From positions 11,135 through 75,134 of the forward strand of contig CAZRGQ010000001.1 in the NCBI GenBank assembly GCA_964599645.1: a DNA stretch of 64,000 bases. The letters are read 5' to 3'. This stretch comes from an uncultured Lentisphaerales bacterium. Its GTDB lineage: Bacteria; Verrucomicrobiota; Kiritimatiellia; RFP12; JAAYLN01. The notes beneath the pieces were generated by a model. That model did not search any database, was not told the DNA's origin, and saw only the letters and a list, made by a program, of their open reading frames with translations. Positions 9,498 to 55,045 of this stretch are shown piece after piece. The translations under genes were made by a program, and so were the position numbers. Numbering within the stretch: position 1 is the first letter of the stretch; each line of letters starts with the position of its first letter.

Positions 9498-10718
9498 ATG
9501 AGCAGTATTGAGAGAGGCATTGTCCGTGATCTTGCCAAGCGCTACCTTGAGGTAGCGCAGGCGCCTTTGCAGGAGGAGCGGCGCAAACTGTGGCGTGATC
9601 TCAACAGCCTGCGGCGCACCCGTCCGCTCATCTACGTGCGAGCCTTTGCCTGGCATGAGATGCCGGAGGCCGCGACCATCTGTCAAGAGCCGCGCCTGAG
9701 GGGCTACGAGCACCACTTCCGCCATCTCCTCTGCTGGCACTCGCTCGGCGACGACTCGGTTTTCAACCCCTGGGTGGTGGTGCGGCCCCACTTTAGCCAT
9801 CACGGCTGGGGGCTTGATGTCAGGAGAAACCTGACCGGTGTGGCAGGTGGTTCGTATAAAATCGACTATCCGCTCAAAACTCTTGAGGATGCCGGAAAAA
9901 TCATAATGCCACGTCATGCGATCGATGAGGAGGCGACGGCCGACGCCTTGGCCTTTGCCGTGGAGCTGTTGGGCGATATCCTGCCGGTTACACTCGATCG
10001 CTCACCCAACTACACCATGTGGAGTGGCGATCTGGCCACGATTCTCGGTCAACTACGCGGCATTGAAAACATCATGCTCGACATGTATGACAATCCGGCC
10101 TTGCTCCAGCGTCTGATGGAGATGTTGGCGCAGGGGATTGAAGGGGTTCAGGCGGAGGCCGAGGCCGCAGGCGATTGGAGCCTCCTGGGGCACCAGAATC
10201 AGGCCATGCCTTATGCCCATGAACTGCCCGATCCGGCGCCGGATACGAACGGCGTGCAGCGTCAGCAGTTGTGGGGTTTCATGGCCGCCCAGGAGTTTAC
10301 GGCCATCTCGCCTGCGATGCATGAGGAGTTTCTACTCCGCTATCAGTTGCCCATCCTGCAGAAGTTCGGTCTCACCGCCTATGGCTGCTGTGAAGACCTG
10401 ACGCAGAAGATCGGGATGCTACGCCGGATACCGAATCTGCGCCGCATCGCTGTAGCCCCCAGCGCCAATGTGGCGGCATGTGCCGCTCAGATTGGTCACG
10501 ACTACGTTATCAGCTATCGTCCCAGCCCGGTCGATATGGTGTCGTACGACTTCAATCCCGAGCGCATGCGCCGGATACTGACCCGTGATCTCGCAAGCTG
10601 CCGTGGACAGAGCCTCGACATCACCTTGAAGGACGTTGAGACCGTCGGTGGCGACCCCAACCGCGTCCGCACCTGGGTCAGCATCACACGCGAAGTGATC
10701 AACGATCTCTTCGGTTAG
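9498..10718 (+). CDS. hypothetical protein (possibly a uroporphyrinogen-decarboxylase-like / methyltransferase-like TIM-barrel fold; assignment weak)
   Basis: 406-aa ORF with protein-like composition and own promoter/terminator signals. No motif I can assign with confidence. Confidence 0.5.
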   Translation: MSSIERGIVRDLAKRYLEVAQAPLQEERRKLWRDLNSLRRTRPLIYVRAFAWHEMPEAATICQEPRLRGYEHHFRHLLCWHSLGDDSVFNPWVVVRPHFSHHGWGLDVRRNLTGVAGGSYKIDYPLKTLEDAGKIIMPRHAIDEEATADALAFAVELLGDILPVTLDRSPNYTMWSGDLATILGQLRGIENIMLDMYDNPALLQRLMEMLAQGIEGVQAEAEAAGDWSLLGHQNQAMPYAHELPDPAPDTNGVQRQQLWGFMAAQEFTAISPAMHEEFLLRYQLPILQKFGLTAYGCCEDLTQKIGMLRRIPNLRRIAVAPSANVAACAAQIGHDYVISYRPSPVDMVSYDFNPERMRRILTRDLASCRGQSLDITLKDVETVGGDPNRVRTWVSITREVINDLFG

Positions 10719-16931: not shown

Positions 16932-16942
16932 GGGGGGGGGGG
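16932..16942. repeat. homopolymeric G11 tract in the divergent intergenic region (yggS <-> pseudopilin operon)
   Basis: Eleven consecutive G read directly. Flanked by short inverted repeats (ttgctg...cagcaa). Confidence 0.9.
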
Positions 16943-17042: not shown

Positions 17043-17120
17043 CGGCAGGCTCTTGCCGCCGCAGTGCGTCAGCCCACACACCCTTGGCTGTTAAGGCCTT
17101 TTACCTTTCAACACAGATCG

Positions 17121-17174
17121 CCGGGCAAAATTGCCCCTGCTGCGCAGGGTCGCTAATCGCTCAATTTTGCCCGG
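17121..17174. promoter_or_regulatory. perfect 13-bp inverted repeat pair CCGGGCAAAATTG ... CAATTTTGCCCGG separated by 28 nt (contains an inner CCCTGC-tgc-GCAGGG hairpin)
   Basis: Read directly. About 300 nt upstream of the pseudopilin start. Could be a regulator binding site or an RNA structure. Confidence 0.4.
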
Positions 17175-17392
17175 CTTCGGATGAATCTGGCATTAGCTCC
17201 CGCCTTGGCTCCCTTGCAGCGCCCCGCCTATTCGTGTCAATTGGTGTTCATTCGTGGTTCTATTTACACGCTCTTCTCATTCACACGGCTCTGCAACCGG
17301 GAGTGCAGCAGCGAGGAGGGTAAAAGGCCCGCAGTTGCAGCCCGCTTTCGCTCTTTTCGCAAATATGATAAACAATGCTGCTTGAAATGGGC

Positions 17393-17419
17393 TTGAAAGG
17401 CCGATTTAAATGGTATAAT
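17393..17419 (+). promoter_or_regulatory. putative sigma70 promoter of the pseudopilin operon: -35 TTGAAA (17393-98, duplicated gcttgaaa x2), extended -10 TGgTATAAT (17411-19)
   Basis: AT-rich island in a GC-rich region, same TGGTATAAT motif as at 9435, about 55 nt upstream of the ATG at 17475, with a good RBS (GGGAGAGAG) before the start. Confidence 0.45.
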
Positions 17420-17474: not shown

Positions 17475-17915
17475 ATGACGACGATCCACCACCAGAGAGC
17501 GCTAAAGCGCTGCCACAGACGGCTGTCCCGTTGGCACTCTTGTGCCGGTATGTCGTTGGTTGAAGTCGTCGTCTCTTCAGCTATTCTGGCTTTGGCCATC
17601 CTGACAATCTTTGCCACCTTCAGCTATGCGCGGCGCGCAGTAGTCCTGACTGAGGAGCGTCTGGCCTCGATGCATATTGCGCGTCATGCCATGGAGCGTC
17701 TGCGCAACTATCGCTATGACGATACCGAACTAAGCGTCGGCACCAGAAAGCGCCCGTTGCCGGGCTATCAGGAGAATCGTGGTTACTATAGCGTGACCGA
17801 AGACAAGGCCAACGGCGTGAAGACGATCAGGGTGGTGGTCGAGTGGGTCACCCCCTGGCAGGCGCAACGCGAGGTTGAACTATCGACGATGATGAGCAGG
17901 ACTTTTCACGAATGA
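17475..17915 (+). CDS. prepilin-type N-terminal cleavage/methylation domain protein (type IV minor pilin / T2SS pseudopilin-like)
   Basis: Basic leader, then AG|MSLVEVVVSSAILALAILTIF, the class III signal (G|F/M-x-L-x-E plus hydrophobic helix). Confidence 0.6.
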   Translation: MTTIHHQRALKRCHRRLSRWHSCAGMSLVEVVVSSAILALAILTIFATFSYARRAVVLTEERLASMHIARHAMERLRNYRYDDTELSVGTRKRPLPGYQENRGYYSVTEDKANGVKTIRVVVEWVTPWQAQREVELSTMMSRTFHE

Positions 17916-18424
17916 GAGGCGATTTTTTACAGAAGCGGGGTTATACCCTGACCGAAGTGATGGTAGCCGTGGCGCTCTCGGTGCTGATCGCAGCGGGTGC
18001 CTTCTCCCTCTTTTCGGCGATGTTCTCCTACTGGAAAGGGGTCAACTACCGTGTGCAGGCCGACAGTGATATCAACATGACCATGAGCCGGCTGGTGTAT
18101 GGGATGCCGGAGGCACCGGGGTTGCGTAATGTCGTCGGTGATACGGCCAGCCTTACGACGATGGCCAACAACAGCGGCTGGACGCTTAATTACTCCACGC
18201 CGGCCAGCGACGATACCTTTGAGCAGCGGAGCCTTGTGTGGTCACGAGCCGACAAGACGTTGACCTTTAATCCGGGCGCTGTTGTGGTAGGGCAGGATAT
18301 TGTTGAGGCGACAGCCAGTATCGACCGGAATCTCTTCTTGATCACTCTGCGCCTTGAGCGTAGCGAGGGGCGTTATACCGTGCGCCGTGAACTGGAGACA
18401 GAGATTCTATTCCGCAACTTTTAA
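17912..18424 (+). CDS. prepilin-type N-terminal cleavage/methylation domain protein (pseudopilin)
   Basis: KRG|YTLTEVMVAVALSVLIAAGAF is the canonical prepilin peptidase motif. Start codon overlaps the upstream stop. Confidence 0.7.
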   Translation: MRGDFLQKRGYTLTEVMVAVALSVLIAAGAFSLFSAMFSYWKGVNYRVQADSDINMTMSRLVYGMPEAPGLRNVVGDTASLTTMANNSGWTLNYSTPASDDTFEQRSLVWSRADKTLTFNPGAVVVGQDIVEATASIDRNLFLITLRLERSEGRYTVRRELETEILFRNF

Positions 18425-18431
18425 TGGGGAG

Positions 18432-19739
18432 ATGTTAGCCGTGAAGAGAGACAACAACGGCAGAAATGGCGCCACACTGGTGGTTGTAATCGGCATTATG
18501 CTGATCGGCGCACTCATCACGGCTTCGGTGATGGCGCGAGTTAACAGTCGGGTAAATCTGGCTTTCAGGCAGGTCCATCTCGAGGAGGCTTTTCATGTCG
18601 CCGAAGGCGGCGCTGAGCGCGCTGCCGCCACCATCACGGTGCTCGGCTATGGCAACGTGGGGACACGGACAATAAATGGCTCGTTGGGGCGTGGCCACTA
18701 CACTACCAAGATATCGAGTCAGTCACTCAGCGGCGGTTATCAGGTCGATATCATCTCAACCGGCACGGTCAACGGCGTCAGCCGCGTAGTCAAGATGTCG
18801 GGTGTGCAGCGCGTCAGTTGGGCCCGTTATGCCCTCTGGTACAACAAGCAGTCAGCGAAACTCTACATGATACCGGGCGAGAAATTCCATGGTCTCTTCT
18901 ACTCCAAGCCGCTGCTGCGCTTCAGCAACAAACTGCTCGCTGAAAATGGCCAGGTGCGCTTCTATGACCGTGCCTGGACGGGGCAGTCGACGATCCATAA
19001 AGAGTCGGGTGCTGATCCTGTTTTTGACCGTGGGCTGATTTATAGCTACCACTCCACCACAGAGGAGGATATGTTGCGGGATGTCGATTTCGCCACACTC
19101 AAGGCGCAGGCCAATAGTGATATGATCTTCAAGGGACCCACCACCATTGTGCTTAACGGCAAAAAAATGACGGTTACCAACACCGAAAAAGGGTATACCA
19201 ATAAACAGTTGGATATACCGAGTGACGGGCTGATCTATATTCAAAGCTACAACTCCAACTATACCACTTTTAATGGCGATTTGACGGTCAGCGCTCCCGA
19301 CGGCTTGAACGAGCGGGTTACATTGGTGGCTGAGAACGACATCCTGATTCCAGACCATATAAAATATAAAAATGATCCAAGCAAACCCGCCACAGCCAAC
19401 TCTACCGATGCTCTCGGTCTGATCGCCAAAAAGCATGTCAGAGTTACCAATGACTCGCCGAAAAATCTCTATATCTTTGCCCATATCATCTGCCAGAAGG
19501 GCGGCTTCGGGGTTGATAGCTATCAAACCGTCTCCGACAAGGGAACTTTGACGGTCTATGGCGGCATCGTCAATGATACGCGTAACGGAGTTGGTCAAGT
19601 CAGCACCGATAGCCGTGGCAGAGTAACACGCAACGGGTATGCCAAAGACTATATCTTTGACAAGCGCTTTAACAATACCCCGCCACCCTTCTATCCCGAG
19701 ATACCGGATCAACTGGAGTGGAGCCGTTGGGAGGGCTGA
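18432..19739 (+). CDS. PilX-N-like pilus assembly / minor pilin-associated protein (N-terminal hydrophobic helix, large extracellular domain)
   Basis: Start MLAVKRDNNGRNGATLVVVIGIMLIGALITASVMA resembles the PilX N-terminal domain. The track ORF begins earlier (18354), but ATG 18432 follows the upstream stop (18424). Confidence 0.5.
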   Translation: MLAVKRDNNGRNGATLVVVIGIMLIGALITASVMARVNSRVNLAFRQVHLEEAFHVAEGGAERAAATITVLGYGNVGTRTINGSLGRGHYTTKISSQSLSGGYQVDIISTGTVNGVSRVVKMSGVQRVSWARYALWYNKQSAKLYMIPGEKFHGLFYSKPLLRFSNKLLAENGQVRFYDRAWTGQSTIHKESGADPVFDRGLIYSYHSTTEEDMLRDVDFATLKAQANSDMIFKGPTTIVLNGKKMTVTNTEKGYTNKQLDIPSDGLIYIQSYNSNYTTFNGDLTVSAPDGLNERVTLVAENDILIPDHIKYKNDPSKPATANSTDALGLIAKKHVRVTNDSPKNLYIFAHIICQKGGFGVDSYQTVSDKGTLTVYGGIVNDTRNGVGQVSTDSRGRVTRNGYAKDYIFDKRFNNTPPPFYPEIPDQLEWSRWEG

Positions 19740-19744
19740 AGCGT

Positions 19745-20119
19745 ATGTCGTTTGAGTCACATCTGGTACGTCTCGTGCCTCTCACAGCTCTCCTCTTGCT
19801 GCTGGCCGGCTGCAGCGATGCCGGGCGTAAGCCCGGGGCACGAGCCACCTTTCCCAAACTCGATGAGGCGCCACCACCCGCCATGCCACGGCTGACGGCC
19901 CGGATGGCAGCAGAGACGGCCGCAACCGAAGTTGCGCCTCGCAGGGAGGTGGTCGCCAGCGATAGTTGGCTGACGCGTCAAGAGCAGAACGCGTCGCAGG
20001 TCAAGGCGGCCAGAGAGTATGCCGCCCGCATGGGAACCAACGATCCCTTCGCCATGAGTGAGGTCGAGCTGGCGGAGCTGGCCGAGTTTCTCAAGGATGG
20101 GACCGTCGAGGCTTATTAG
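19745..20119 (+). CDS. small lipoprotein, last gene of the pseudopilin operon
   Basis: MSFESHLVRLVPLTALLLLLAGCSD is a lipoprotein signal with LAGC lipobox. Convergent with, and 3-nt overlapping, the pglE-like gene stop. Confidence 0.55.
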   Translation: MSFESHLVRLVPLTALLLLLAGCSDAGRKPGARATFPKLDEAPPPAMPRLTARMAAETAATEVAPRREVVASDSWLTRQEQNASQVKAAREYAARMGTNDPFAMSEVELAELAEFLKDGTVEAY

Positions 20120-21255
20120 CCTGCCATGCAGTTGTGGCAGATGGCGACGATCCGGGCCAGCTCAGCCTCGCTCAGTCCCGCCCCTGAGGGGAGGCAGAGT
20201 CCCTGCCGGAAGAGCCGCTCTGCGACACTGCCGCCATAACATTTGACGCCGGCAAAGACCGGCTGCAGGTGCATCGGTTGCCAGACGGGGCGCGACTCGA
20301 TCGCCGCTTGCGCCAGCGCCAAACGGAGCTGCTCCGGGGTTACGCGGCTCTTGGTGGCGTCGATCACCATCACGGAGAGCCAGTGGTTGGGCTGGCTGTA
20401 GTCGGCCTGCGGCATCCAGGAGATAGCCTCGTTATCGGCAAAGGCGCTGCGGTAGTAGTCGGCAATCCGCTGCTTGCGGCGTAGAATCTCCGGCAGATGG
20501 GCGAGCTGTCCCACGCCGATGGCAGCCGAGATGTTGCTGAGGCGGTAGTTGAAGCCGAGCTCGCGGTGCTCATACCAGGGGGTGGCCTCACGCGCCTGTT
20601 GCGAACGCCAGGCAGCACGCGCTACCAGTTCGCTGTCGTGTGAAGCGAGCAGGCCGCCGCCGGAGGTGGTGATGATCTTGTTGCCGTTGAAGGAGTAGAC
20701 GGCCGCCAGGCCGGCAGCGCCGGCCATACGCCCTTTGTAGCGTGAACCGACCGCCTCGGCGGCGTCGATAATCAAGGGTACACCGTACTCTTGGCAGAGC
20801 TCTTCCAGCCGGTCGTAATCGCAGCACTCGCCATAGAGGTCGACGGCCACCACCGCCTTGGGCAATTTGTTGCTACGTGCCGCATCGCGCAGCGCCTCGG
20901 CCAGCAGCGCGGGATCGAGGCTCCAGTTGCTGCTGCCGGAGTCGATAAAAACCGGCTCGGCGCCGCGATGCACAGCCGGTGCAATCGAGGCGATAAAGGT
21001 GAGGTCGGAGCAGAAGACACGGTCGCCGCGCCCGAGATTCAACTCGTGAAAGAGGAGGTCGAGCGCCGCCGTGCCGCTGCTGAGGGCGGCCACGTGCGGG
21101 ATGCCGCAGAGCTCGCTGCAGCGCTGCTCAAAGAGGGTGACCATCGGCCCGGTCGGTGCGATGTAGTTGGAGGCCAGAGCGGCGGCGATCTGCCCGGCTT
21201 CATCACCACCCAGCCACGGCGGTGAGAGAAATATCCTGGGGGGGGGAGTCTGCAT
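20116..21255 (-). CDS. DegT/DnrJ/EryC1/StrS-family PLP-dependent sugar aminotransferase (PglE-like, UDP-4-keto-6-deoxy-GlcNAc aminotransferase type)
   Basis: Start MQTPPPRIFLSPPWLGGDE...NYIAPTGPMVTLFEQ closely parallels the Campylobacter PglE N-terminus MRFFLSPPHMGGNE...NYIAPLG...FEQ, and the DegT fold runs throughout. The upstream track ORF extension is GC noise. Confidence 0.75.
   Translation of the reverse strand: MQTPPPRIFLSPPWLGGDEAGQIAAALASNYIAPTGPMVTLFEQRCSELCGIPHVAALSSGTAALDLLFHELNLGRGDRVFCSDLTFIASIAPAVHRGAEPVFIDSGSSNWSLDPALLAEALRDAARSNKLPKAVVAVDLYGECCDYDRLEELCQEYGVPLIIDAAEAVGSRYKGRMAGAAGLAAVYSFNGNKIITTSGGGLLASHDSELVARAAWRSQQAREATPWYEHRELGFNYRLSNISAAIGVGQLAHLPEILRRKQRIADYYRSAFADNEAISWMPQADYSQPNHWLSVMVIDATKSRVTPEQLRLALAQAAIESRPVWQPMHLQPVFAGVKCYGGSVAERLFRQGLCLPSGAGLSEAELARIVAICHNCMAG
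21238..21246. repeat. homopolymeric C9 tract (G9 on the + strand) encoding PPP at codons 4-6 of the pglE-like gene; candidate phase-variation tract
   Basis: Nine consecutive G at 21238-21246, confirmed by the protein reading T-P-P-P-R. Confidence 0.85.
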
Positions 21256-21860
21256 CAGCGTAACCTCACCAGTCGCTCGCTGTCGGCCAGGTCGCGCAGC
21301 GCCACAGCGCCGGCACCCAGCGTGGCCCAGGCACCGATCACGACTCCCGGTATGGTGACGGCATTGGAGCCGAGGAGCGCGCCGCTCCCGACGCGGCACC
21401 CGCCCGAGAGACGTACGCCGGGGCAGAGTTGGGCGCCATCGGCCACCCTGCAGTCGTGGCCGACGCTGGTGTGGTGGTTGACGATAACATGCTCAGCCAG
21501 CTCTGTACGGCAGGAGATCACGACGCCGGCTGCCACCAGTGTGCCGGCGCCGAGCACGACATCGGGGGCGATGATGGCGCTGGGATCGATGATCGATACC
21601 GCACGCCAGCCGAGAGCAGTGGCGCGCGCAGCCACTGCGAGGCGTCTGCGGTTGTCGCCGATCGCAACGTGAAAGGCAACCGCCGGCGGCAGAGTGGCGG
21701 CCGCAGCCTCAGGCTTGCCGAGGAGTCGCCTGCCTGCCAGAGTGCCGCTCGCCTTGTCGGGTGCGTCGTCACAGAGGCCCACGACCTCCATGCCGGCCCG
21801 CCCGGCCAGCCAGGCCACCTCGACACCCAAACCACCTGCACCGATAATTATCACCTGCAT
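21255..21860 (-). CDS. hexapeptide-repeat sugar N-acetyltransferase, NeuD/PglD family
   Basis: N-terminal Rossmann-like MQVIIIGAGGLGVEVA followed by a left-handed beta-helix repeat region (VIVNHHTSVGHDCRVADGAQLCPGVRLSGGCRVGSGALLGSNAVTIPGVVIG). ATGA overlap with pglE-like. Confidence 0.7.
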   Translation of the reverse strand: MQVIIIGAGGLGVEVAWLAGRAGMEVVGLCDDAPDKASGTLAGRRLLGKPEAAAATLPPAVAFHVAIGDNRRRLAVAARATALGWRAVSIIDPSAIIAPDVVLGAGTLVAAGVVISCRTELAEHVIVNHHTSVGHDCRVADGAQLCPGVRLSGGCRVGSGALLGSNAVTIPGVVIGAWATLGAGAVALRDLADSERLVRLR

Positions 21861-21864
21861 CGTC

Positions 21865-22431
21865 TCACCCCGTAAACTCTTCCATGGTGGCCGCTGTGGC
21901 CGCCGCAATCCCCTCACGCCGTACTACCTTGATGACCGTCAGCCATAAAATCTTCAGATCGAGCCGGAACGAGCGGTGCGTCACATACCAGACATCGAGC
22001 GCCAGCCGTTCCGGCCATGTCAGCAAGTTGCGCCCCTTTACCTGCGCCCAGCCGGTAATGCCGGGGCGCACCTCATGGCGGCGGCGCTGCTCGCTGGAGT
22101 AGCGTGGCAGATAACGCACCGGCAGGGGGCGCGGACCGACCAGCGACATCTCGCCGCGCAAGACGTTGAGCAACTGCGGCAGCTCATCCAGACTGCTGCT
22201 GCGCAGCCAGCCTCCGAAGCGGGTCAGGCGTTCACTGTCGCTGCCTTCTCCAAGGCGCATGGTACGGAATTTGAGCAGCATAAAGGTGGCGTCGCGCCAG
22301 CCGATACGCTCTTGGCGAAAGAGCACCGGGCGTCCCTCCACGCCCCAAACCAGCAGCGCCAGTAGCGCCAACAACGGCAGCCAGAGCGGCAGGGTCACGA
22401 CTACCAGCAGCAGATCGAAGAGGCGCTTCAC
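21865..22431 (-). CDS. small monotopic phosphoglycosyl transferase (bacterial sugar transferase, PglC/WbaP-C-terminal type)
   Basis: MKRLFDLLLVVVTLPLWLPLLALLALLVWGVEGRPVLFRQERIG...FRTMR...SLDELPQLLNVLRGEMSLVGPRPLP, the signature of initiating PGTs. Confidence 0.8.
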   Translation of the reverse strand: MKRLFDLLLVVVTLPLWLPLLALLALLVWGVEGRPVLFRQERIGWRDATFMLLKFRTMRLGEGSDSERLTRFGGWLRSSSLDELPQLLNVLRGEMSLVGPRPLPVRYLPRYSSEQRRRHEVRPGITGWAQVKGRNLLTWPERLALDVWYVTHRSFRLDLKILWLTVIKVVRREGIAAATAATMEEFTG

Positions 22432-24035
22432 CGCACGATCCTCCGGTAGAGTACGCCTTCGCGTTGCCAGGAGTCGACCTGCTCCAGCAGCCAGGCGGGG
22501 GTGTAACTCTCCCCCGGCGAGACGACGTAGATGGCCGCCCCGCCTTGCAACGCCTGCTGCAGCGCGCTGCGTTCTGCCGCCTCATTCCAAGGGGTGACAA
22601 GATGCCACTCTCTGTCATAGGGCAGGAGACCGGCGGCGCCGGCCGCCAGCAGAGCGCCAGCCGCCGTGGCATCAGCCACCAGCCACTCTCCGTGCTCCAT
22701 CTGGTCGACGACCGCAGTGATGAAGCGGGCTGCCGACTGCTCATGCTGCTGCCACGGTTGCGCCCAGTAGGCGACTTCGTTGCGTCCCGGCAGGGCACGG
22801 GCACGTGTCAGGTCGATACCGGTCCGGGCAATGGCCGCTGGCATCAGGAGCGGTATGCCAAGCTGTGTCAGCAGCGCGAGGCTGAGGAGGAGTGCGCCAC
22901 GCTGCAGGGCGCGGCGGCCGCTGCCGAGCCAGGCGGGGAGCCCCAGACCGGCCCAGAGCGCCAGCAGGCCAAGCGTCGGCAGGATAAAGGTGGCCTGATC
23001 AGGCACAAAGTAGCGTAGCCAGAAGAGTGCATGCAGCAGGGTGGCTGCCAGCAGCAGGCGGGTGGCGGCGTCAGTGCGATAACGACGCAGCCCGAGCGCG
23101 GCCATGAACGGCAGCGGGTTCAGCAGACTGAGTGCGGCCAGGCCCCAGTTGAAACCGACCTGACGCCAGTTTCGCGGCCAGAGGCCGACCACATAGCTCT
23201 GATAGCGATCACCGAAGAGGAGCCCTTGCAGCGTCTTGAGCAGCGCGCCGGAGGCGTGCCACTCCTGCAGCGCCAGCAGCAGCAGCGGAGCCGCTGCCAC
23301 CAGCCAGACACCTGCCAGCAGCCAGGGCAGAGAGCGGTGTCTGCTCAGGGCGGCCGTGGCGGGTACGGCATCACGCCGGCGCCTGACCTGATCTATTACA
23401 GCGAGCGCCAGATAGAGCGCCAGGTTGAGCAGCGCCAGATTGTGGATGGCGAAGTGGAGTCCGTTGAGCGCCGCCAGCGCCACCAGCCAGCGCCGGCTGC
23501 TCTCCCGTGGCGTCACTGTCGTGGTTGTCGCGGCTGCCACCGCTCTGGCCGCAGTGCGGCTCTGGTAGTAGCGCCAGAGGAGATAGAGCTCACCCAGCAT
23601 GGCCGCCAACGACCAGGTATAGACCTCGGCCATAGTTGCGAGCCACCAGCACATCTGGGTACCGCCCAGCAGCACCATCGCCAGCAGGGCGCTGCCAAGG
23701 TGACCCGTGACAGCCAGCAGCAGCCGTCCCAGCAAGGCCAACGCCACCACCATGCCGAGGCCACTGAAGAGGTTGATGGCATAGAGGCGCAAGCCGAAGG
23801 GCCAGAGGGCGGCGAAGTTGCGGGCCGCTGCAATGTAGAGCGGGTGGGCACGAGCCAGTCCGCCATGCCAGATGTAGTCACCGATCAACACCCGATATTG
23901 GAATTCGCCGCTATCCTGCCAGGCCACCCCACGCTGGGCGGTGGCGGCGTAGAGCAGCAGAAAGAGGGCCACCGGCAGCCAGAAGAGCAGCCGTTGCCAT
24001 CCGTCAAGCTGCTGTCTCTGCTGTGCACTACTCAT
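22428..24035 (-). CDS. DUF2723-family polytopic membrane protein (GT-C-fold, TMEM260/protein O-mannosyltransferase-like)
   Basis: WQDSGEFQYRVL...GLARAHPLY resembles the DUF2723 signature (W-x-DSGE ... HPPGYPLY). At least 10 predicted TM helices and a C-terminal soluble domain. Start MSSAQQ at 24035 gives ATGA overlap with the holA stop. Confidence 0.55.
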   Translation of the reverse strand: MSSAQQRQQLDGWQRLLFWLPVALFLLLYAATAQRGVAWQDSGEFQYRVLIGDYIWHGGLARAHPLYIAAARNFAALWPFGLRLYAINLFSGLGMVVALALLGRLLLAVTGHLGSALLAMVLLGGTQMCWWLATMAEVYTWSLAAMLGELYLLWRYYQSRTAARAVAAATTTTVTPRESSRRWLVALAALNGLHFAIHNLALLNLALYLALAVIDQVRRRRDAVPATAALSRHRSLPWLLAGVWLVAAAPLLLLALQEWHASGALLKTLQGLLFGDRYQSYVVGLWPRNWRQVGFNWGLAALSLLNPLPFMAALGLRRYRTDAATRLLLAATLLHALFWLRYFVPDQATFILPTLGLLALWAGLGLPAWLGSGRRALQRGALLLSLALLTQLGIPLLMPAAIARTGIDLTRARALPGRNEVAYWAQPWQQHEQSAARFITAVVDQMEHGEWLVADATAAGALLAAGAAGLLPYDREWHLVTPWNEAAERSALQQALQGGAAIYVVSPGESYTPAWLLEQVDSWQREGVLYRRIVR

Positions 24036-25162
24036 CTGGTTGCGGCACCCTGGCGTGGCGGTTGACGTCCGATAGCCCGCAGGAGGTAGGTTTCGGTAAG
24101 CCACTCCTGCGGCAGCGAGGAGGAGACGAGCTTCTCGCGCAACTCGATAATCAGGTGGCGCGCCACACGCAGTTCACGCAGCCGCCAGGTGGCCGCCTGG
24201 GTCACCAGTTTGCCGAGACGGAAGGCGGGCCAGCGCCGCATATCCTTCTCCTGGCCATCGAACCACGCTGTAATCTCCGGCGGCATGGTGCCCCAACGCA
24301 GGCCGCCATAGCCTTCAGAGGTGGCCCATTTGCGGTCGAGCAGTTCACGCACCGTCAGGAGTTCGCTGACGCGTGTATCGAGCGAGGTGGCGAGGCGGAT
24401 GGGGCTTTCTGCTTGCGACAACTGCACTCGCAGCTCTTTGATGAAGTCGGCGCTGCGCCGCAGCGCAAAGGAGTCGAGCAGGTCCCACACCTCGGCGGTG
24501 GCGCCGCTGGCGACGATATCGGTAATATCCTTAACCGTTACCTTGGTGCGTTCACCGCAGTAGCAACGCAGTTTCTCCAGCTCGCTGACGATGGTGCGGG
24601 TGTCGTAGCCGGTGCGGTCGAGGAGGGCCTGGAGTACGCTGGAGTCGAGCTGGAGGCCGGTCTGCGGCAGCCAGCCTTCGATAAAGGTCTTGGCACGAGC
24701 CTCATGCTGTCGCGGTTTCAGATTGTTGCCGAAATCTTTGATCTCGCAGTGAGGCGCATTGAAGGCCTTAAAGAGGGCGGTGGCGCGGTTGATTTTGAAG
24801 GTGGTCAGAATCAGGCGCTGTCCCTCGGGGAGTCCCTGCTTGATCAGGTTGGTCAGGTCGGCCACGAGGCTGGTAGTGGTGGCGCTGCGGCTGATGCGGT
24901 CGATCGAGAGGAAGGAGGGCTCACGGAGCCAGACCAGCTTGTTGCCGCCGCCGAAGAGGCCGTCGGTCGTCAGGGCCTCACAGCAGGCGCGGATGGCACG
25001 GCTGCTCTCATCGACTGTTTCAACTCGTGCATCGACCGTTTCCAGCCCGAAATCACGCTCGGCGGGCGGCACGAAGGCATCGATCAAGCGGCGCGCCTCC
25101 AACAACACCTGGAAGTCGTCGTCGCCACAGATCAGATAGCACGATTTGGCGGGAGTAGTCAT
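24032..25162 (-). CDS. holA: DNA polymerase III delta subunit
   Basis: N-terminus ...YLICGDDDFQVLLEARRLIDAF..., length and overall pattern are typical of HolA. Confidence 0.65.
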   Translation of the reverse strand: MTTPAKSCYLICGDDDFQVLLEARRLIDAFVPPAERDFGLETVDARVETVDESSRAIRACCEALTTDGLFGGGNKLVWLREPSFLSIDRISRSATTTSLVADLTNLIKQGLPEGQRLILTTFKINRATALFKAFNAPHCEIKDFGNNLKPRQHEARAKTFIEGWLPQTGLQLDSSVLQALLDRTGYDTRTIVSELEKLRCYCGERTKVTVKDITDIVASGATAEVWDLLDSFALRRSADFIKELRVQLSQAESPIRLATSLDTRVSELLTVRELLDRKWATSEGYGGLRWGTMPPEITAWFDGQEKDMRRWPAFRLGKLVTQAATWRLRELRVARHLIIELREKLVSSSLPQEWLTETYLLRAIGRQPPRQGAATR

Positions 25163-29068: not shown

Positions 29069-30910
29069 TCATAGCTTGCCACCGCTGTATGAGATCTCAA
29101 TTATGGTCGATTCAAGTGCCTTATGTGCCAGACGCTTAAGCAGCGTTGCATAACGGATGTCGTCAATCCCCTCACGGAACCCCTCCCACTGCAGCGTGTC
29201 GAGCACACCATGGCTGATACCATAGAAGAGTGACATGGGACGGTAAGTCAGCCTGTCGTCGTTATACAGGTTGATCGCATGAGCGTAGTTGAAAATTCTG
29301 CTGTAGTTTGCCAGGTAGAGAGCCATTCCGTTCTGACGTCGGTTGAAGGCCGGATTCTCGACACCTGTATGCATCTGCGCATAAGAGCCGAGCGCCACCT
29401 TGCCGATCATGTTCCACTTGGTGGTGAAGACATCATTCTCCGGCGCTTTGGCAACACTATGCCAATCGTAGAGATAGCCTGCTTTGTGAAAGATATTGCC
29501 ACCACCGTAGATATTAAACTTGATCCCCTCCTGCTGATAGGCACGAAAGATGGGACGCGCATCCATTATCCAGCCCGGACCCGGCTCATCACCGTATTGC
29601 AGTACCAGAGTATGTTTCCCGGCCACTTTATCAAACCAACGTGATATCAACTGCGCCCCGCTTCTCAGTTGCAGATGGGTTCCCCCCACCCCCTCTACAC
29701 GTGAGCCACCGAAGATGATATCGCTATCCATGCCGGCTTCACGCATTGCGTCAATAGCGAATTTCGTATTGACATTGCGATTCTCATTCTCAACCCTGAT
29801 CAGATAGATCGTTTGGTTATGCTGTGCCATGTTGCGCAGCATGGCACGCAACTGATCCCGCGCCAACTGCAGATCACCGCCATTTGCCTCCATCAGCATC
29901 TCCAACGATATATAGCTGCCCATTGTTACCAGAAAATCGCGCTCCAGGTCGAAGTTGGTCTTGGGTGTCGGCAATTCAAAGGGAAGAATCCGTATTACAA
30001 CCGGCACCTCCCCCAGCTCCTGCTCCGCGTGCAATAGCTTGACTGCTCCGTGATAGATACCGGGTTCACTCTCAGCCGAGCTCTGGACGGTCAGCATAAA
30101 AGTAGTGAAGCATCCGCTGTTCAAGGTCACCGGCTGTAAGCTGTCAGCATCGCGGAAGGAGGGGTGCATAGCTTTAAAGACGGTTGGGACACGACGGTAG
30201 TCGGCATAAGGGACGTCCATATCGCGTGGTGGGTTGATCCACTCGTAACTGACGTTGCCATCATCTCCGTAGATGCGAGCATAGTTGGCCGTGCTTGCTT
30301 CATCCACTCTGATCAGCTCTTCATCATTCACAAGCAGCTCAGGCACCAGCTTGAAACCGGTATCGCCGAAGTAGCTGTACCAGGCATTCCTGTTCTGATA
30401 CCATATTTTTACCAGCTTCAGATCCAGTTGGTGCGGCTGCAAGCGAGCCCCCGACGCCGCCTTGAAGGGAGTCAGCCTGAACTCCACCTTGCCCAGATCG
30501 CGCAGGGGGTAGATCGTAAAGGCTCCCGGCTCATACTCACCCTGAGCCATCACAATACGCACTGGCGCTGCCACCTCGCCATCCACCGGATAGGCCTCGT
30601 GAAGGCGCTGCATCTCACTCAATGGTGGCACCGCATAGTGTACATGGGAGTCGACTCCCTCCTCACCAACCAGCTCCGCTGCCACCCTCACGGCATTGAT
30701 GGCGAGTTTACGCTGTTCCGGCGCGCTCTTGCCCGCAAACCGCTCCAGATGGCTCCGTAGTGCAGCACTCTTGACCGTTGCCATCAACTCTGGCAACTGC
30801 TTCAGATAGCACTGCTCTTGGTATTCGCTTAACAGCTCCACCTGAGCCACTCCTCGCAAACTGCAAACGACACCAAACCACAGCGCCACCCCAGCTATCC
30901 TGATCCTCAT
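29069..30910 (-). CDS. secreted hypothetical protein, probably a glycoside-hydrolase-like protein (no family assigned)
   Basis: Signal peptide MRIRIAGVALWFGVVCSLRGVAQ. 613 aa with a composition typical of CAZyme-like secreted enzymes. Confidence 0.55.
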   Translation of the reverse strand: MRIRIAGVALWFGVVCSLRGVAQVELLSEYQEQCYLKQLPELMATVKSAALRSHLERFAGKSAPEQRKLAINAVRVAAELVGEEGVDSHVHYAVPPLSEMQRLHEAYPVDGEVAAPVRIVMAQGEYEPGAFTIYPLRDLGKVEFRLTPFKAASGARLQPHQLDLKLVKIWYQNRNAWYSYFGDTGFKLVPELLVNDEELIRVDEASTANYARIYGDDGNVSYEWINPPRDMDVPYADYRRVPTVFKAMHPSFRDADSLQPVTLNSGCFTTFMLTVQSSAESEPGIYHGAVKLLHAEQELGEVPVVIRILPFELPTPKTNFDLERDFLVTMGSYISLEMLMEANGGDLQLARDQLRAMLRNMAQHNQTIYLIRVENENRNVNTKFAIDAMREAGMDSDIIFGGSRVEGVGGTHLQLRSGAQLISRWFDKVAGKHTLVLQYGDEPGPGWIMDARPIFRAYQQEGIKFNIYGGGNIFHKAGYLYDWHSVAKAPENDVFTTKWNMIGKVALGSYAQMHTGVENPAFNRRQNGMALYLANYSRIFNYAHAINLYNDDRLTYRPMSLFYGISHGVLDTLQWEGFREGIDDIRYATLLKRLAHKALESTIIEISYSGGKL

Positions 30911-31027: not shown

Positions 31028-31393
31028 CGCCATAGCGACCGTTTTCCTGGTGACCGTTTTTCTGTCCCTCACCGTTACTCACTCCTTAACAGCCTCCCTT
31101 TTGCAAATTGCTGTTCGCCGCACATTGACTTGCAGAGGCGGATGCAATACGCTTCTCACTACTGTTCAGAGCATGACCTTAATACCCATCAGCGCATCTC
31201 TGTCCCCGGTTTGCGGCGTAGGGACAGAGAACAACCGACATCGTCATTCTCTGTCCCCCCAGCGGCTTCTCTGTCCCTTGCTATCTTGCGGTTCTCTTAT
31301 CGCGCCTCCTATGCCTCCCCCCCCTGTCACTGAGCGATTACGGTGTTATGCTTTGCGCACTCACTCATCTGTGCTATGGTATTTTCAAGTGCC

Positions 31394-47020: not shown

Positions 47021-47179
47021 AAGAGGAACGCGGAACAGGCCGTCTGTGTGTGGTCAGAGCCTGTTCTTGCACCACCGGGAAGGAGGTGGACCCGTTTGTG
47101 GTGCACGCTCTCACGTTCCGCCACTATTCAAGCAGGTAGTGTGCCAAGAGATGCTTACATCCCCGGCTCTTTTATGCTA

Positions 47180-47207
47180 TGGTTGTGGCTCAATGGTTGT
47201 GGCTCAA
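47180..47207. repeat. tandem direct repeat 2 x 14 nt (TGGTTGTGGCTCAA) immediately upstream of the RBS of the 1161-aa gene
   Basis: Read directly; a third partial unit (TGG) follows. Candidate direct-repeat binding site for a response regulator. Confidence 0.6.
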
Positions 47208-47235
47208 TGGAACTAACTCTTCACAGGAGAACATC

Positions 47236-50200
47236 ATGAACTCTTCTCTCTCTGCCTTTACGATTACACTGCTGCTGCTCGCCGCCGGAGTCGGGGCCGC
47301 TCCCGGGATCACTGCCAACACCACCACCACGAAGTGGCAAGCGGTAGAGATAGTGGCGGAGGGCCACGAGCAGGTAGTGCAGCGTCCTGAAGAGTGTGAC
47401 AGCCTCCGTTTCAGCTTTATAGTCGGCTCTACCAACCAGAGTCTCTTGCGTATCATACGCAGCGACGGCAGTCAGGTCAGGGTGCCACTGTTCAATCAGG
47501 ACGACAAACGCTCATACTTCGGCAAACAGCCAAAGGTTGACCCTGAGGCAGCGCCCGCGCCTGCGCTCGACGACGCTGCCCTGCTCTTCAGACCGTGGCT
47601 GGCAGCTCATGTGCGTCCGTTGTTGCGTCGCTATACCGAGAAGCAGCAGGAGGAGTTGCAAGCGCGTTGGCAGACTCTGCCGCCGGCCTCGCAACAGACC
47701 TTTACCCTGGAGTTGCGCCAGCAGGAGGGCTTCTTCGAGCGCTATCTCAATGGACACTACATCGGTTACGACAAAGGCAGTTTCGACTCTGTCTGGCTTA
47801 AGCTGCCTGACGGCGGGCGGGTTTTTGACGCCGTAGCCGGCAACGCCTGGCGCGACGACCGGTTTCTGCCGCTGGAGATGGCATGGCTGGCACGTCCGGG
47901 AGCCTTCTCCAATGCGGTGCTCTCGCTCGACAGCGGCCTGCAGCAGATCGACGGGGTGCCGCTACAGGTTGCCCACGGCAGCGCCAGCGCCGACGTCGGT
48001 GTCGTGCGCCAGATGAAGGGCTCGTGGATGTTGGAGGTGGATGAACACCTCTCACGCACACCGTTCGACGGCATGCCGGAGAGCATTATCACCACCGTGC
48101 CGGCAGCCTACTACAGCCGCGCCTGGGTCTTGTGCGGTTTCAATCCTGCCAAAGGAGTCGATCCGATTGTAACGGCCAAGATGACACGCCACGCCCGGTC
48201 GGGGCGCGGTGGCGCCATCAGCAGCACGACGGTTGAGCTGCCACGCCAACGCGGCGACAAACTGCCCGCCAACGTGCGGGAGGTAGGTGAGATCAGACTG
48301 GAGGGCACCAACCTGCCGCTCTATCTGGTGGAGTTTGACCTCAAGCCGGGCGAGATACTCGACCTGCTGGCGATGGAGGAGGACAAGACAGCACGCATGA
48401 TGAGTCAGCCCTATCTCGATATCGACTTCATGGGTAAACCGGGACGGGTGGGAGCCCAGTGGGATGGCAGCAAGAAGCCCGACAACAAGTCGCAGAGCGG
48501 AGTACACCTCTTCGGGATCACACTTGAAAAGATGCCGCTCAAAATGAAGCTGATCCAGTCGGAACCGGGCAACATCTTCCACAACAGTGAAGAGCCGGTA
48601 GTCGGCGTCGAGTTACAGGCCACCGCCCCCGACGCCAACGGTAACCTGCGCTGGACTATTTGTGATGATGGCGGCCGGGAGTTGCAGCAGCAGAGCATCA
48701 AGGTGAGCTTCGGACGGGTTGGTGACCAGCAGAGTCTGAAACTGCCGCTACTCGTTTCCCGGCCCGGTTGGTACGGACTCAGGCTGGAGCTGATAGCCCC
48801 CGATGGCAGAGTCTGGCTACGCCATGAGGCGGCCTTTGCCCAGTTGGGGACCGACACCCGCCAGGCCGGTTATGAGTCGCCCTTCGGCTCTTCATGGTTT
48901 GCCGGCACGCACCACAGTGGCGGCGAGATGGAGATCGCCGGCAAGCTCTTCCTCAAGGCGGGGCTGCGTCAGGGGCAACTGCTGCGGGCCAAGTTTGATG
49001 AGGCCGATTTTGCCCCCTGGAAGGTGACGCAAAATGCCATCCCCTGGCGCATCCGGCCCAAATCGTTCGCCGATAGAGAGGCGGCCAAAGACGAGCTCGA
49101 GCCGCAGGTGCGGGAGCTGCTGCAGCGCTTCCCCCACTGCAACAGCGCCACCATTTTCCATGAGAGCTACAGCAGCAAGCTGCCGGCAGAGCTCTTCGGC
49201 GCGAGCAGCGTTGAAGATGAGGCACAGCTTGCCAAGATTCAAAAGATGGTGGAGCTGGGCAACTTCATGGGCGAATTCTACCGGGAGAGGTTTCCACAGG
49301 TCAGACTGGTGGTGGGCAACACGACCCACTCCTCAACGATTATCTCGGCGCTCTTGCGCCACGGTTTGAAGCCTGAATATATCGATGCCATCGGTATCGA
49401 GGTGGTCGGGCAGAGTTTTCTGCCCGAGCGTCTGACCGGCGGCGGCATTCAGGGGGCCTGGCTGGCGCGCGAGACGGCACGACGTCTGGGACATGAGATA
49501 CCGTTAACGGCCTGTCCCGAGTTTATCTATCGGCTCGACCGGACTCTGGGGCAACGCCGTCAGGCCGAATTCTATGCCCGTGACGTCCTGATCTCGCTCG
49601 CCTACGGCTTCGACCGCGTCACCCCCTCCCTCCTGATGGACGTCGGCAACTCCTACTACAACACCCTCTGGGGTGGCAGCGGCCTCTGCCAGCGCTATCC
49701 GCTGATCTACCCCAAACAGTCTTACGTGGCACTGGCCACCCTGACACGAGTTCTTGACCGCGCCGCGCTGGTGGAGCAGGTGCCGACCGGCTCCCACACC
49801 GTCTATGCCCTGCGCTTCAAACGGGCCGATGGCAATCAGGTGCTGGCGCTCTGGACCCCCGTTGGTGCCGCGACGCTGGAGCTGGAGTTTGAGCAGCGCA
49901 CGGCCATTGAGACTATCGGACTCCTCGGAGCCGGCAACCAGAGCCGCGAGGCACGCCGGCAGCAGGTCGTCGCCACGACTGCGCCCTGCTATGTGGTGAG
50001 CAGTCAGCCGGCTACGGCTGTAAACCTGCTGGAGCGCCGCTACGATCCACCACCGGCCACCTTCAAACCTCTGGAGTCGCTCAGCTCGACCAACACCTGG
50101 CAGTTGAGTGTTGGCGACCCCAAAGTGGAGAGCAAGAGCTACAATCTGCCCTATCGCAAGCCGGGCAGCTTCAAACTGAGCGAAGTAAAAGACGCTGAAC

Positions 50201-55015: not shown

Positions 55016-55045
55016 TCTCTCTTGCCCTCTAAAAAATCGTTGCCA

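What the first reader, a model, noticed from the sequence alone, without database searches (positions are those of the whole stretch)
17475..20119. Orphan four-gene pseudopilin module (two prepilin-type proteins, a PilX-N-like protein and a lipoprotein) without ATPase/platform genes
Two consecutive genes carry textbook class III signal peptides (G|MSLVEV..., G|YTLTEVMVAVAL...). A larger protein follows whose N-terminus resembles PilX (NGATLVVVIGIMLIGALITASVMA), then a small lipoprotein. All are translationally coupled, with the 17912 start overlapping the upstream stop. No PilB/GspE ATPase, PilC/GspF platform, secretin or prepilin peptidase is in the window. Such orphan minor-pilin sets are abundant and poorly characterised in PVC-group and other environmental bacteria. 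They may build a tip complex for a T4P, T2SS or competence pilus encoded elsewhere. The unusually elaborate upstream region (previous finding) suggests tight regulation.
Basis: partly seen in the sequence, partly recalled or inferred. Interest (0 to 1): 0.5.

Follow-up and report, generated by a model that had tools for sequence, protein, structure and literature searches.

The report
Type IV pilus tip-pilin gene cassette
This is an intact four-gene operon for the small "priming/tip" complex of a type IV pilus, whose cap subunit carries a large beta-solenoid head like Thermus ComZ; it is an ordinary kind of system, here in a PVC-group bacterium and separated from the pilus machinery genes.

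Summary
Window 17475-20119 (+) carries four tightly packed genes:
- g1 and g2 are prepilins, with G|MSLVE and G|YTLTE cleavage motifs.
- g3 is a 432-aa protein with a PilX/GspK-like N-terminus that lacks Glu5.
- g4 is a 124-aa lipoprotein.

No pilus or secretion machinery gene was found in the 64 kb.

New points:
- The g1-g2-g3(-g4) order is a conserved cassette in Kiritimatiellia, Lentisphaerae and Verrucomicrobia metagenome contigs.
- In 10 of 12 related loci with at least 6 kb on both sides, the cassette lies within 300 bp of machinery genes (pilMNOP, a secretin and usually pilC). The two loci that also show a PilB-type ATPase and a major pilin, and the one that shows a PilT-sized ATPase, are separate look-ups. 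The missing partner is therefore most likely a type IVa pilus. The unlinked layout seen here is the minority arrangement.
- The g3 family is large (8,794 50%-identity clusters) and mostly unnamed; some members carry DUF4900 or PilX_N.
- g4 is predicted, at low overall confidence, to be a membrane-tethered helical hairpin with no known relatives.

Verdict: a new member of a known kind (ComZ/cyanobacterial-PilX-type core minor pilin set). Interest is modest.

The parts
17411..17419 (+). Candidate extended -10 promoter element TGGTATAAT (TATAAT at 17414-17419), about 55 nt upstream of the g1 ATG. Inferred only.
   Evidence: Read directly from the sequence. The sigma-70 scan lists no + strand promoter-like site upstream of g1; the nearest -35-like hexamer (TTGAAA, 17393-17398) would leave a 15-nt spacer, outside the 16-18 nt the scan accepts. 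No experimental support.
17475..17915 (+). g1: prepilin-type minor pilin (146 aa) at the GspI/PilV position. It has a 25-aa basic leader, predicted cleavage G25|M26 (mature protein starts at nt 17550) and Glu at +5.
   Evidence: N_methyl 19.7 bits; weak gspI E=3e-4 and pilV E=1e-3. Orthologues align along their whole length and all carry [G/A]|F[T][LV]xE. Strict motif test. Called as 146 aa by an independent gene caller.
17912..18424 (+). g2: prepilin-type minor pilin (170 aa) at the GspJ/PilW position. Predicted cleavage G10|Y11 and Glu at +5. Its start overlaps the g1 stop (ATGA).
   Evidence: N_methyl 25.6 bits, above the 21.2 cut-off; TIGR02532 23.8 bits, above 16.3. Orthologue alignment. 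Weak sub-threshold GspJ-type hits among orthologues.
18441..19739 (+). g3: cap/tip minor pilin (432 aa). It has a conserved Gly10 before the hydrophobic helix and no Glu5 (+5 is Val). The predicted fold is a GspK/PilX-like pilin domain (helix 9-67, sheet 76-126, last strands 420-431) with a roughly 280-residue ice-binding-protein-like beta-solenoid. This is the ComZ-type architecture. An alternative ATG start lies at 18432.
19745..20119 (+). g4: small lipoprotein (124 aa) with lipobox LAG|C23, a Pro-rich disordered linker and a C-terminal helix-loop-helix (residues ~75-118). It is a conserved fourth gene of the cassette and its role is unknown.
   Evidence: syntenic orthologues; the two most distant ones, L006 and L007, have no LxGC lipobox in the aligned position and appear to start with a plain hydrophobic segment, read from the sequences only. 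(almost no detectable homologues). (AlphaFold pLDDT 64 overall, 80-91 for the hairpin). No Pfam or NCBIfam family.

Best explanation
The four genes form one operon that encodes the priming/tip complex of a type IVa pilus. The motor, platform, secretin, peptidase and major pilin genes lie elsewhere in the genome.

Inferred mechanism, by analogy with GspI-J-K and PilV-W-X:
- g1 and g2 are cut by the prepilin peptidase after Gly. g3 may be cut after its conserved Gly10 as well.
- In the inner membrane, their N-terminal helices pack into a three-subunit complex.
- g3 lacks Glu5 and carries a bulky beta-solenoid, so it can only sit at the very top.
- This complex seeds polymerisation of the major pilin on the PilC/PilMNO platform and ends up at the pilus tip.
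- At the tip the solenoid acts as plug and adhesin. Its ligand is unknown; DNA (as for ComZ) or a polysaccharide or surface are the candidates.
- g4 is a membrane-tethered periplasmic helical hairpin that always follows g3. It is most likely an accessory factor for assembly or stability of the complex.

What is shown: gene structure, motifs, conservation, synteny with T4aP genes in relatives, and the predicted fold of g3.
What is inferred: the stoichiometry, the order of assembly, the tip location, the ligand and the role of g4.
For: Motifs and coupling:
- Two prepilin motifs with Glu5, found only here in the window. N_methyl hits (13 of 14 g1/g2 orthologues).
- Overlapping or closely spaced genes with internal Shine-Dalgarno sequences.

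Conservation and synteny:
- The g1-g2-g3(-g4) order holds in every locus that is long enough, out of 80 metagenome loci and 6 looked-up contigs.
- Of 12 loci with at least 6 kb on both flanks, 10 have machinery genes (pilM/N/O/P/Q or pilC homologues) within 300 bp of the cassette.
- The full clusters of relatives contain PilM_2, a secretin, T2SSF, an MshEN-T2SSE ATPase, a 361-aa PilT-sized T2SSE, an N_methyl pilin and a sigma-54 response regulator. This composition is T4aP, not T2SS.

Structure of g3:
- High-confidence model with a long N-terminal helix, a pilin sheet and a beta-solenoid.
- The conserved Gly and the absence of Glu5 in g3 match the capping subunits PilX and GspK, as stated in bioRxiv 10.64898/2026.02.12.705559.

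Published parallels:
- ComZ is argued to be a tip pilin that pairs with a GspI-like neighbour (PMC6561018).
- Cyanobacterial PilX proteins have the same solenoid and are proposed to replace PilY1 as the plug (bioRxiv 10.64898/2026.02.12.705559).
Against: - No machinery gene lies in the 64-kb window, so the partner system in this genome has not been seen.
- g1 and g2 reach none of the curated GspI, GspJ, PilV or PilW cut-offs. Their assignment rests on position, size and weak hits that mostly cover the N-terminal helix.
- g3 has no significant sequence similarity to ComZ (profile E=0.41) or to Pfam T2SSK or PilX_N.
- No GspH/FimU-like adaptor is present in the cassette.
- The role of g4 is a guess.
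- No complex was modelled.
Confidence: 0.75

Rival explanations
1. The cassette is the GspI-J-K-type tip of a type II secretion pseudopilus. It would act as the piston head that pushes folded exoproteins, for example glycan-degrading enzymes, through a secretin.
For: - The weak NCBIfam hits are to GspI/XpsI (g1) and GspJ (g2).
- The I-J-K gene order is that of T2SS operons.
- The window encodes heparinase-like and beta-helix proteins that could be secreted.
Against: - In relatives the neighbours are PilM_2/PilN/O/P-type genes, a PilT-sized ATPase, an MshEN-type PilB and a short major pilin. No GspC/L/M is among them.
- There is no GspG or GspH gene in the cassette.
- A roughly 280-residue rigid solenoid on the cap is known from pilus tip pilins (ComZ, cyanobacterial PilX), not from T2SS GspK.
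Confidence: 0.1
2. The cassette primes a dedicated competence (DNA-uptake) pilus. The g3 solenoid would be the DNA receptor, as proposed for Thermus ComZ/PilA2. Other minor-pilin sets elsewhere in the genome would prime adhesive or motility pili on the same machine.
For: - ComZ is the closest solved structure, and it binds DNA (PMC6561018).
- In cyanobacteria, separate PilX/PilV sets prime competence and motility pili, and the sets need not be co-localised (bioRxiv 10.64898/2026.02.12.705559).
- Several relatives carry two cassettes (L039, L073, L078, L083, L085, L086).
- The unlinked position here fits an interchangeable module.
Against: - Identity to ComZ is only 12-14%, so the ComZ DNA-binding lysines cannot be mapped.
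- The same solenoid fold occurs in ice-binding proteins and in cellulose-binding tapirins, so the fold does not specify DNA.
- No comEA, comEC or dprA gene lies near the cassette here or in the relatives that were read.
Confidence: 0.2
3. The cassette is a stranded, no longer functional remnant, split from its pilus cluster by rearrangement.
For: - It has lost the PAS protein and the two downstream genes (X5, X6) that flank it in the closest relatives. It also lies between unrelated housekeeping and glycosylation genes.
- Its GC3 is slightly lower than that of its neighbours (0.64-0.70 against 0.72-0.80).
Against: - All four ORFs are intact, with Shine-Dalgarno sequences and coupled starts.
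- All 25 invariant columns of the g3 family alignment (A1) are by construction present in the window protein, which is a row of that alignment.
- Other genomes also keep unlinked cassettes intact (L004, L007, L034, L037).
- The same sequence was recovered in several independent assemblies.
Confidence: 0.05

Closest known systems
Thermus thermophilus ComZ with PilA2 and the neighbouring minor pilins (PDB 6QVI/6QVF; PMC6561018)
   Same: - A GspK-like pilin domain carries a large triangular, ice-binding-protein-like beta-solenoid.
- It is encoded next to GspI/GspJ-like minor pilins.
- It is argued to cap a T4aP.
   Different: - Sequence similarity is not significant (E=0.41) and identity is 12-14%.
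- g3 is about 100 residues shorter.
- The gene order differs (Thermus: pilA1-pilA2-comZ-pilA3, from my own knowledge).
- A lipoprotein gene (g4) follows g3 here.
- DNA binding is untested.
- The phylum is different (PVC group).
Cyanobacterial PilX(Com)/PilX(EPS)-PilV core minor pilin sets, including HpsA-D (bioRxiv 10.64898/2026.02.12.705559)
   Same: - The PilX-position cap lacks Glu5 and has a beta-solenoid between the pilin strands, proposed as a PilY1-type plug.
- The sets can lie away from the machinery genes and occur in several copies.
- Weak HpsC/HpsB hits appear among g1/g2 orthologues.
   Different: - g3 gave no hit to any NCBIfam model at E<=1, so no detectable sequence membership.
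- The accessory genes differ.
- There is no experimental link to motility, EPS or competence.
T2SS GspI-GspJ-GspK and T4aP PilV-PilW-PilX (with FimU and PilY1) priming complexes (PDB 3CI0, 5VTM)
   Same: - Three consecutive genes in I-J-K order.
- The first two have Glu5 and the third lacks it.
   Different: - There is no GspH/FimU gene and no PilY1 gene.
- The alpha-helical insertion domain of GspK is replaced by a beta-solenoid.
- None of the curated family cut-offs is reached.
Verru_Chthon cassette (TIGR02596/02598/02599/02600) of Verrucomicrobia
   Same: - A multi-gene cassette of prepilin-type proteins plus a large protein in PVC bacteria.
- Faint hits to proteins B and C.
   Different: - Scores are far below the cut-offs (13.9 against 51.4 bits).
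- g3 does not match protein D at all.
- This is not the same cassette.

Membership tests
Type IV pilin-like proteins (class III signal peptide) - g1, g2 | Gly at -1, a hydrophobic residue at +1, Glu at +5, then about 20 uncharged residues | tested here: met
   Sequences. The regex plus hydrophobic-tail test gives 2 hits in the window and 0 in 200 shuffles.
Type IV pilin-like proteins (class III signal peptide) - g1, g2 | Pfam PF07963 N_methyl or TIGR02532 at or above the curated cut-off | tested here: inconclusive
   g2 passes (25.6 against 21.2 bits; 23.8 against 16.3). g1 is just below (19.7 against 21.2; 15.5 against 16.3). Of 14 g1/g2 orthologues, 13 hit N_methyl at E<=0.1.
Type IV pilin-like proteins (class III signal peptide) - g1, g2 | Cleavage and N-methylation by a PilD/GspO prepilin peptidase | not testable with these tools
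   No peptidase A24 gene in the window. Testing this needs the full genome and biochemistry.
GspI/PilV (g1) and GspJ/PilW (g2) | Curated NCBIfam equivalog score | tested here: not met
   g1: gspI 21.1 against 44.35 bits, pilV 19.5 against 52.2. g2: gspJ 12.1 against 64.85. Orthologues give only sub-threshold hits. PDB profile hits cover only the N-terminal helix.
GspI/PilV (g1) and GspJ/PilW (g2) | Position directly upstream of the Glu5-less cap gene, in I-J-K order | tested here: met
   The order is conserved in all related loci long enough to show it.
GspI/PilV (g1) and GspJ/PilW (g2) | GspI and GspJ head-domain folds | not tested
GspK/PilX-type capping minor pilin (g3) | N-terminal hydrophobic pilin helix preceded by Gly and lacking Glu5 | tested here: met
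   ...GRNG|ATLVVVIGIML, with +5 = Val. G10 is nearly invariant in 62 relatives. Helix 9-67 in the model.
GspK/PilX-type capping minor pilin (g3) | Pilin-domain fold superposable on GspK | tested here: met
GspK/PilX-type capping minor pilin (g3) | Sequence membership (Pfam T2SSK or PilX_N) | tested here: not met
   The window protein gave no such hit at E<=1. PilX_N is found in only 10 of 62 relatives.
ComZ-type modular tip pilin (g3) | Pilin domain plus a large triangular beta-solenoid of the ice-binding-protein type | tested here: met
ComZ-type modular tip pilin (g3) | Solenoid inserted between the penultimate and last strands of the pilin sheet | tested here: inconclusive
   The order of elements fits: sheet 76-126, solenoid about 130-405, final strands 420-431.
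ComZ-type modular tip pilin (g3) | Detectable sequence homology to ComZ | tested here: not met
   Profile A1 against PDB sequences: 6qvi_A E=0.41, 12.8 bits.
ComZ-type modular tip pilin (g3) | DNA binding and tip location | not testable with these tools
   Needs biochemistry and microscopy.
Type IVa pilus system (as the cognate machine) | Genetic linkage to pilMNOPQ, pilB, pilC, pilT and a major pilin | tested here: inconclusive
   Met in relatives: 10 of 12 well-flanked loci have machinery genes next to the cassette, and the full clusters are shown. Not met in this window, which has none.
Verru_Chthon cassette (TIGR02596-02600) | Matches to proteins A-D at the curated cut-offs | tested here: not met
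   Protein B scores 13.9 against 51.4 bits. Protein C has best E=0.017 among orthologues. g3 gave no hit to protein D.
Bacterial lipoprotein (g4) | Signal peptide ending in the lipobox L-[AS]-[GA]-C | tested here: met
   MSFESHLVRLVPLTALLLLLAG|C23. The lipobox is conserved in the four closest orthologues (L001, L002, L004, L005). L006 and L007 have no LxGC lipobox in the aligned position and appear to begin with a plain hydrophobic segment, read from the sequences only.

The most novel reading that the evidence does not exclude
The cassette could be a self-contained, independently regulated, exchangeable tip module. PVC-group glycan degraders would plug it onto a shared T4aP machine to give the pilus a particular ligand specificity. 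The solenoid head would bind a polysaccharide or surface, as tapirins do, rather than DNA. g4 would be a new class of membrane-tethered factor dedicated to loading or holding the solenoid cap. This would define a large, unnamed family (thousands of clusters, only partly covered by DUF4900) of PilY1-independent pilus tips.
Probability: 0.2. Interest if true: 0.5.

Novelty: new member of a known kind. Interest (0 to 1): 0.3.

Why it matters
Type IV pili of the PVC group (Kiritimatiellia, Lentisphaerae, Verrucomicrobia) are essentially unstudied. Showing that their core minor-pilin set ends in a ComZ-like beta-solenoid cap extends a design known from Thermus, and very recently from cyanobacteria, to a third, distant lineage. 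It supports the idea that solenoid-bearing PilX proteins are a widespread alternative to PilY1 as tip plug and adhesin. It gives a functional label to a large unnamed protein family (8,794 50%-identity clusters; some members DUF4900). It also flags g4 as an uncharacterised partner that is conserved in the closer relatives. For this window the practical outcome is an annotation, not a new system.

Tried and rejected
- Sigma-54 promoter. A TGGCAC...TGC string at about 17530 lies inside the g1 leader coding region and has the wrong GG-GC spacing. The pattern search found no site between 16703 and 17970, and the window total (55) is not far above chance (44 +/- 6.5). Rejected.
- Riboswitch or known RNA in the 560-bp upstream region. 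Nothing at gathering thresholds, and only chance-level snoRNA hits at E<=1.
- Remnant of the PAS gene, or of X5/X6, that flank the cassette in close relatives. No tblastn hit in the window.
- The sigma-54 activator at 59136-60530 as a PilR orthologue. It has a PAS N-terminus rather than a receiver domain and lies 39 kb away. The similarity is generic.
- Recent horizontal transfer. GC3 is only slightly below that of the neighbours. Not convincing.
- dN/dS against the closest contigs. L088 is 100% identical and L008 differs at 3 of 4095 nt, so there is no signal.
- Homologues of g4. A single-sequence search found only g4 itself, and the profile search found 7 proteins. The resulting model is low confidence outside the C-terminal hairpin, so no fold search was run on it.
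- Genome-contig scan with g3. It returned one distant Vulcanimicrobiota locus (L003) and not the source genome.
- The afdb50 fold library was unavailable.
- Functional link to the adjacent DegT/PglD/Bac_transf/GT-C genes (pilin glycosylation). The adjacency is seen only in contigs of the same strain and in no other related locus. Treated as coincidence.
- Phase variation at the G11 tract (16932-16942). It has the same length in an independent assembly.
Full report
**1. What is in the sequence**

Four + strand ORFs fill window 17475-20119.
- g1 (17475-17915, 146 aa) starts at an ATG preceded by GGGAGAGAG. It reads MTTIHHQRALKRCHRRLSRWHSCAG|MSLVEVVVSSAILALAILTIF...
- g2 (17912-18424, 170 aa) starts at an ATG that overlaps the g1 stop (ATGA). 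It reads MRGDFLQKRG|YTLTEVMVAVALSVLIAAGAF....
- Both have Gly at -1, Glu at +5 and a long uncharged stretch.
- A prepilin regex that also requires 16 uncharged residues finds exactly these two sites in all six frames of the 64 kb. It found none in 200 shuffles.
- Pfam N_methyl is above its cut-off for g2 (25.6 against 21.2 bits) and just below for g1 (19.7).
- g3 most likely starts at GTG 18441 (432 aa). The 100%-identical database proteins have that length, and GGGGAG lies 9 nt upstream.
- g3 reads VKRDNNGRNG|ATLVVVIGIMLIGALITASVMA, so it has a Gly before the helix but Val, not Glu, at +5.
- g4 starts at ATG 19745 (124 aa; exact full-length database match). It follows a GGGAGGG inside the end of g3 and has the lipobox LLLLAG|C23.
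- An independent gene caller on an identical contig gives the same four lengths.

**2. No machinery in the window**

- The machinery proteins of two relatives' pilus clusters (PilB, PilC, PilM/N/O/P/Q, PilT, major pilin, PAS protein, X5, X6) were searched against the window by tblastn. Only the four cassette proteins matched, plus a generic sigma-54 AAA+ similarity at 59136-60530.
- Pfam scans of about 60 ORFs show housekeeping and other unrelated genes. These include the dcw cluster, purD, a YggS-like gene, DegT/PglD/Bac_transf genes, FAD oxidoreductase, heparinase-like and beta-helix proteins and a type I R-M system.
- None of these scans shows T2SSE, T2SSF, secretin, PilM or peptidase A24.
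- The 'orphan' description is therefore correct for these 64 kb.

**3. The cassette is conserved and usually sits in a type IVa pilus cluster**

- g3 has hundreds of homologues. They are named, where named at all, from Kiritimatiellia, Lentisphaerae or Verrucomicrobia MAGs.
- A profile search of 1.84 billion cluster representatives finds 8,794 at E<=1e-3, 2,980 at E<=1e-10 and 575 at E<=1e-30.
- In two relatives (54% and 49% identity), g1-g4 orthologues lie between two sets of pilus genes:
  - a divergent five-gene set ending in a secretin, of which PilM_2 is recognised in L006;
  - a downstream set with a 119-128-aa N_methyl pilin, a sigma-54 response regulator, T2SSF and an MshEN-T2SSE ATPase.
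  - L002 also has a 361-aa PilT-sized T2SSE.
- Eighty metagenome loci were labelled by blastp against these reference proteins.
  - The g1-g2-g3 order, usually with g4, is found wherever the contig is long enough.
  - Of 12 loci with at least 6 kb on both sides, 10 have pilM/N/O/P/Q or pilC genes within 300 bp, and 2 have none.
  - L004 and L007 are further unlinked examples.
  - Seven loci show more than one g3 match (L039, L045, L073, L078, L083, L085, L086).
- The neighbours are T4aP-type (PilMNOP, PilT), not T2SS-type (GspC/L/M). The window shows the minority, unlinked layout of an otherwise pilus-embedded cassette.

**4. What the proteins are**

- g1 and g2 align with their orthologues along the whole length.
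- They give only sub-threshold family hits: GspI, XpsI, ComGE and PilV for g1; GspJ-type, HpsC and Verru_Chthon B/C among the set.
- Profile searches of PDB sequences match only the N-terminal pilin helix.
- Their assignment to the GspI/PilV and GspJ/PilW positions is therefore positional and not proven.
- For g3, an AlphaFold model built on 62 homologues has pLDDT 92.4. It shows helix 9-67, a four-stranded sheet 76-126, a long run of short parallel strands at about 130-405 and terminal strands 420-431.
- In Foldseek, ComZ is the only significant hit (E=2.6e-8).
- The published description of ComZ is the same architecture: a GspK-like pilin domain with an ice-binding-protein-like beta-solenoid inserted before the last strand, argued to be compatible only with the pilus tip and binding the GspI-like PilA2 (PMC6561018).
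- A 2026 preprint reports the same solenoid in all cyanobacterial PilX homologues and proposes that it replaces PilY1 as the tip plug (bioRxiv 10.64898/2026.02.12.705559).
- At the sequence level, g3 is not detectably related to ComZ (E=0.41). It matches no Pfam or NCBIfam family itself. PilX_N and DUF4900 are each recognised in 10 of 62 relatives.
- g4 has almost no detectable homologues. Its model is low confidence overall (pLDDT 64). It shows a signal/lipobox helix, a disordered Pro-rich linker and a better-supported C-terminal helix-loop-helix (pLDDT 80-91). In the two most distant orthologues (L006, L007) no lipobox is present in the aligned position and the N-terminus looks like a plain hydrophobic segment, judged from the sequences alone.

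**5. Mechanism**

- The best-supported reading is a core minor-pilin (priming/tip) complex.
- g1 and g2 (with Glu5) and g3 (without Glu5) would assemble through their N-terminal helices, as GspI-J-K do, and seed polymerisation of the major pilin.
- The complex would stay at the tip, where the solenoid plugs the fibre and binds a ligand.
- The machine is most likely a T4aP encoded elsewhere in the genome.
- Shown: the motifs, the conservation, the synteny and the predicted fold.
- Inferred: the assembly order, the tip location, the ligand and the role of g4.
- Rivals:
  - a T2SS pseudopilus tip, disfavoured by the neighbours seen in relatives;
  - a competence-specific tip, which is possible but untestable here;
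  - a dead remnant, disfavoured by the intact, coupled ORFs and by intact unlinked cassettes in other genomes.

**6. Regulation and surroundings**

- The 560-bp region upstream of g1 holds no Rfam match and no sigma-54 promoter.
- By eye it contains a perfect extended -10 element, TGGTATAAT, at 17411-17419.
- It also contains a perfect 14-nt inverted repeat (17120-17133 / 17162-17175) and a G11 tract at 16932-16942. The tract has the same length in an independent assembly.
- The convergent DegT/PglD-like/Bac_transf/TMEM260-like genes could form a protein-glycosylation set. They are not found next to the cassette in any other related locus.

**7. Verdict**

- Three refinements apply: the partner is a T4aP, the cap is a ComZ-type solenoid pilin, and the cassette is a widespread unit whose unlinked position here is a layout variant.
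- It is a new member of a known kind. Interest is modest (0.3).
- The main value is annotation of a large unnamed family and one uncharacterised conserved partner (g4).

Noticed in passing
window 17120-17175: A perfect 14-nt inverted repeat (GCCGGGCAAAATTG ... CAATTTTGCCCGGC) with a 28-nt spacer. It lies in the divergent intergenic region between the YggS-like gene and g1. No T-run follows on either strand, so it is not a canonical terminator. It may be an operator or an RNA hairpin.
   Followed up: partly
window 16932-16942: A homopolymeric G11 tract 21 nt upstream of the YggS-like gene start (16911, - strand), in the shared promoter region. The length is identical in the independent contig L008, so there is no sign of phase variation. 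Further runs: G9 at 21238-21246 and C8 at 31317-31324.
   Followed up: partly
window 20116-24104 (- strand): Genes convergent with g4, whose stop codon overlaps the DegT stop by a few bases. They are a DegT aminotransferase, a PglD-like acetyltransferase, a Bac_transf sugar-phosphate transferase and a 558-aa polytopic protein with a weak TMEM260-like O-mannosyltransferase hit (E=0.0018). The set looks like a bacillosamine-type protein or glycan glycosylation set. Its adjacency to the pilin cassette is seen only in this strain.
   Followed up: partly
window 51689-58192 (- strand): A type I restriction-modification system (HsdS, HsdM, HsdR) in a low-GC island (0.47-0.50 against about 0.62 elsewhere). 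It is probably horizontally acquired.
   Followed up: no
L001 8034-9074 and 11669-13291; L002 7946-9019 and 11599-13124; also L009-L012, L022: In the closest relatives the cassette is bracketed by a PAS-domain protein upstream and by two conserved genes downstream. The downstream genes are X5 (about 125-140 aa) and X6 (about 385-395 aa; weak HisKA hit in L002). All three are absent from the window. They are possibly a dedicated sensory or regulatory set.
   Followed up: partly
L039, L045, L073, L078, L083, L085, L086: More than one g3 match lies on the same contig, in most of these loci with a second g1 and/or g2 match alongside. None of these loci shows machinery genes in the sequence held. 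This suggests paralogous, exchangeable tip sets.
   Followed up: no
P0067, P0068, P0110, P0117 and others: A roughly 540-560-aa subfamily of g3 carries about 125 extra residues between the N-terminal helix and the rest of the protein. Many of the members matched by Pfam DUF4900 (PF16241) belong to this subfamily.
   Followed up: no
window 47179-50664, 29069-30910, 9498-10718: Three large ORFs (1161, 613 and 406 aa) have no Pfam match even at E<=0.1.
   Followed up: no
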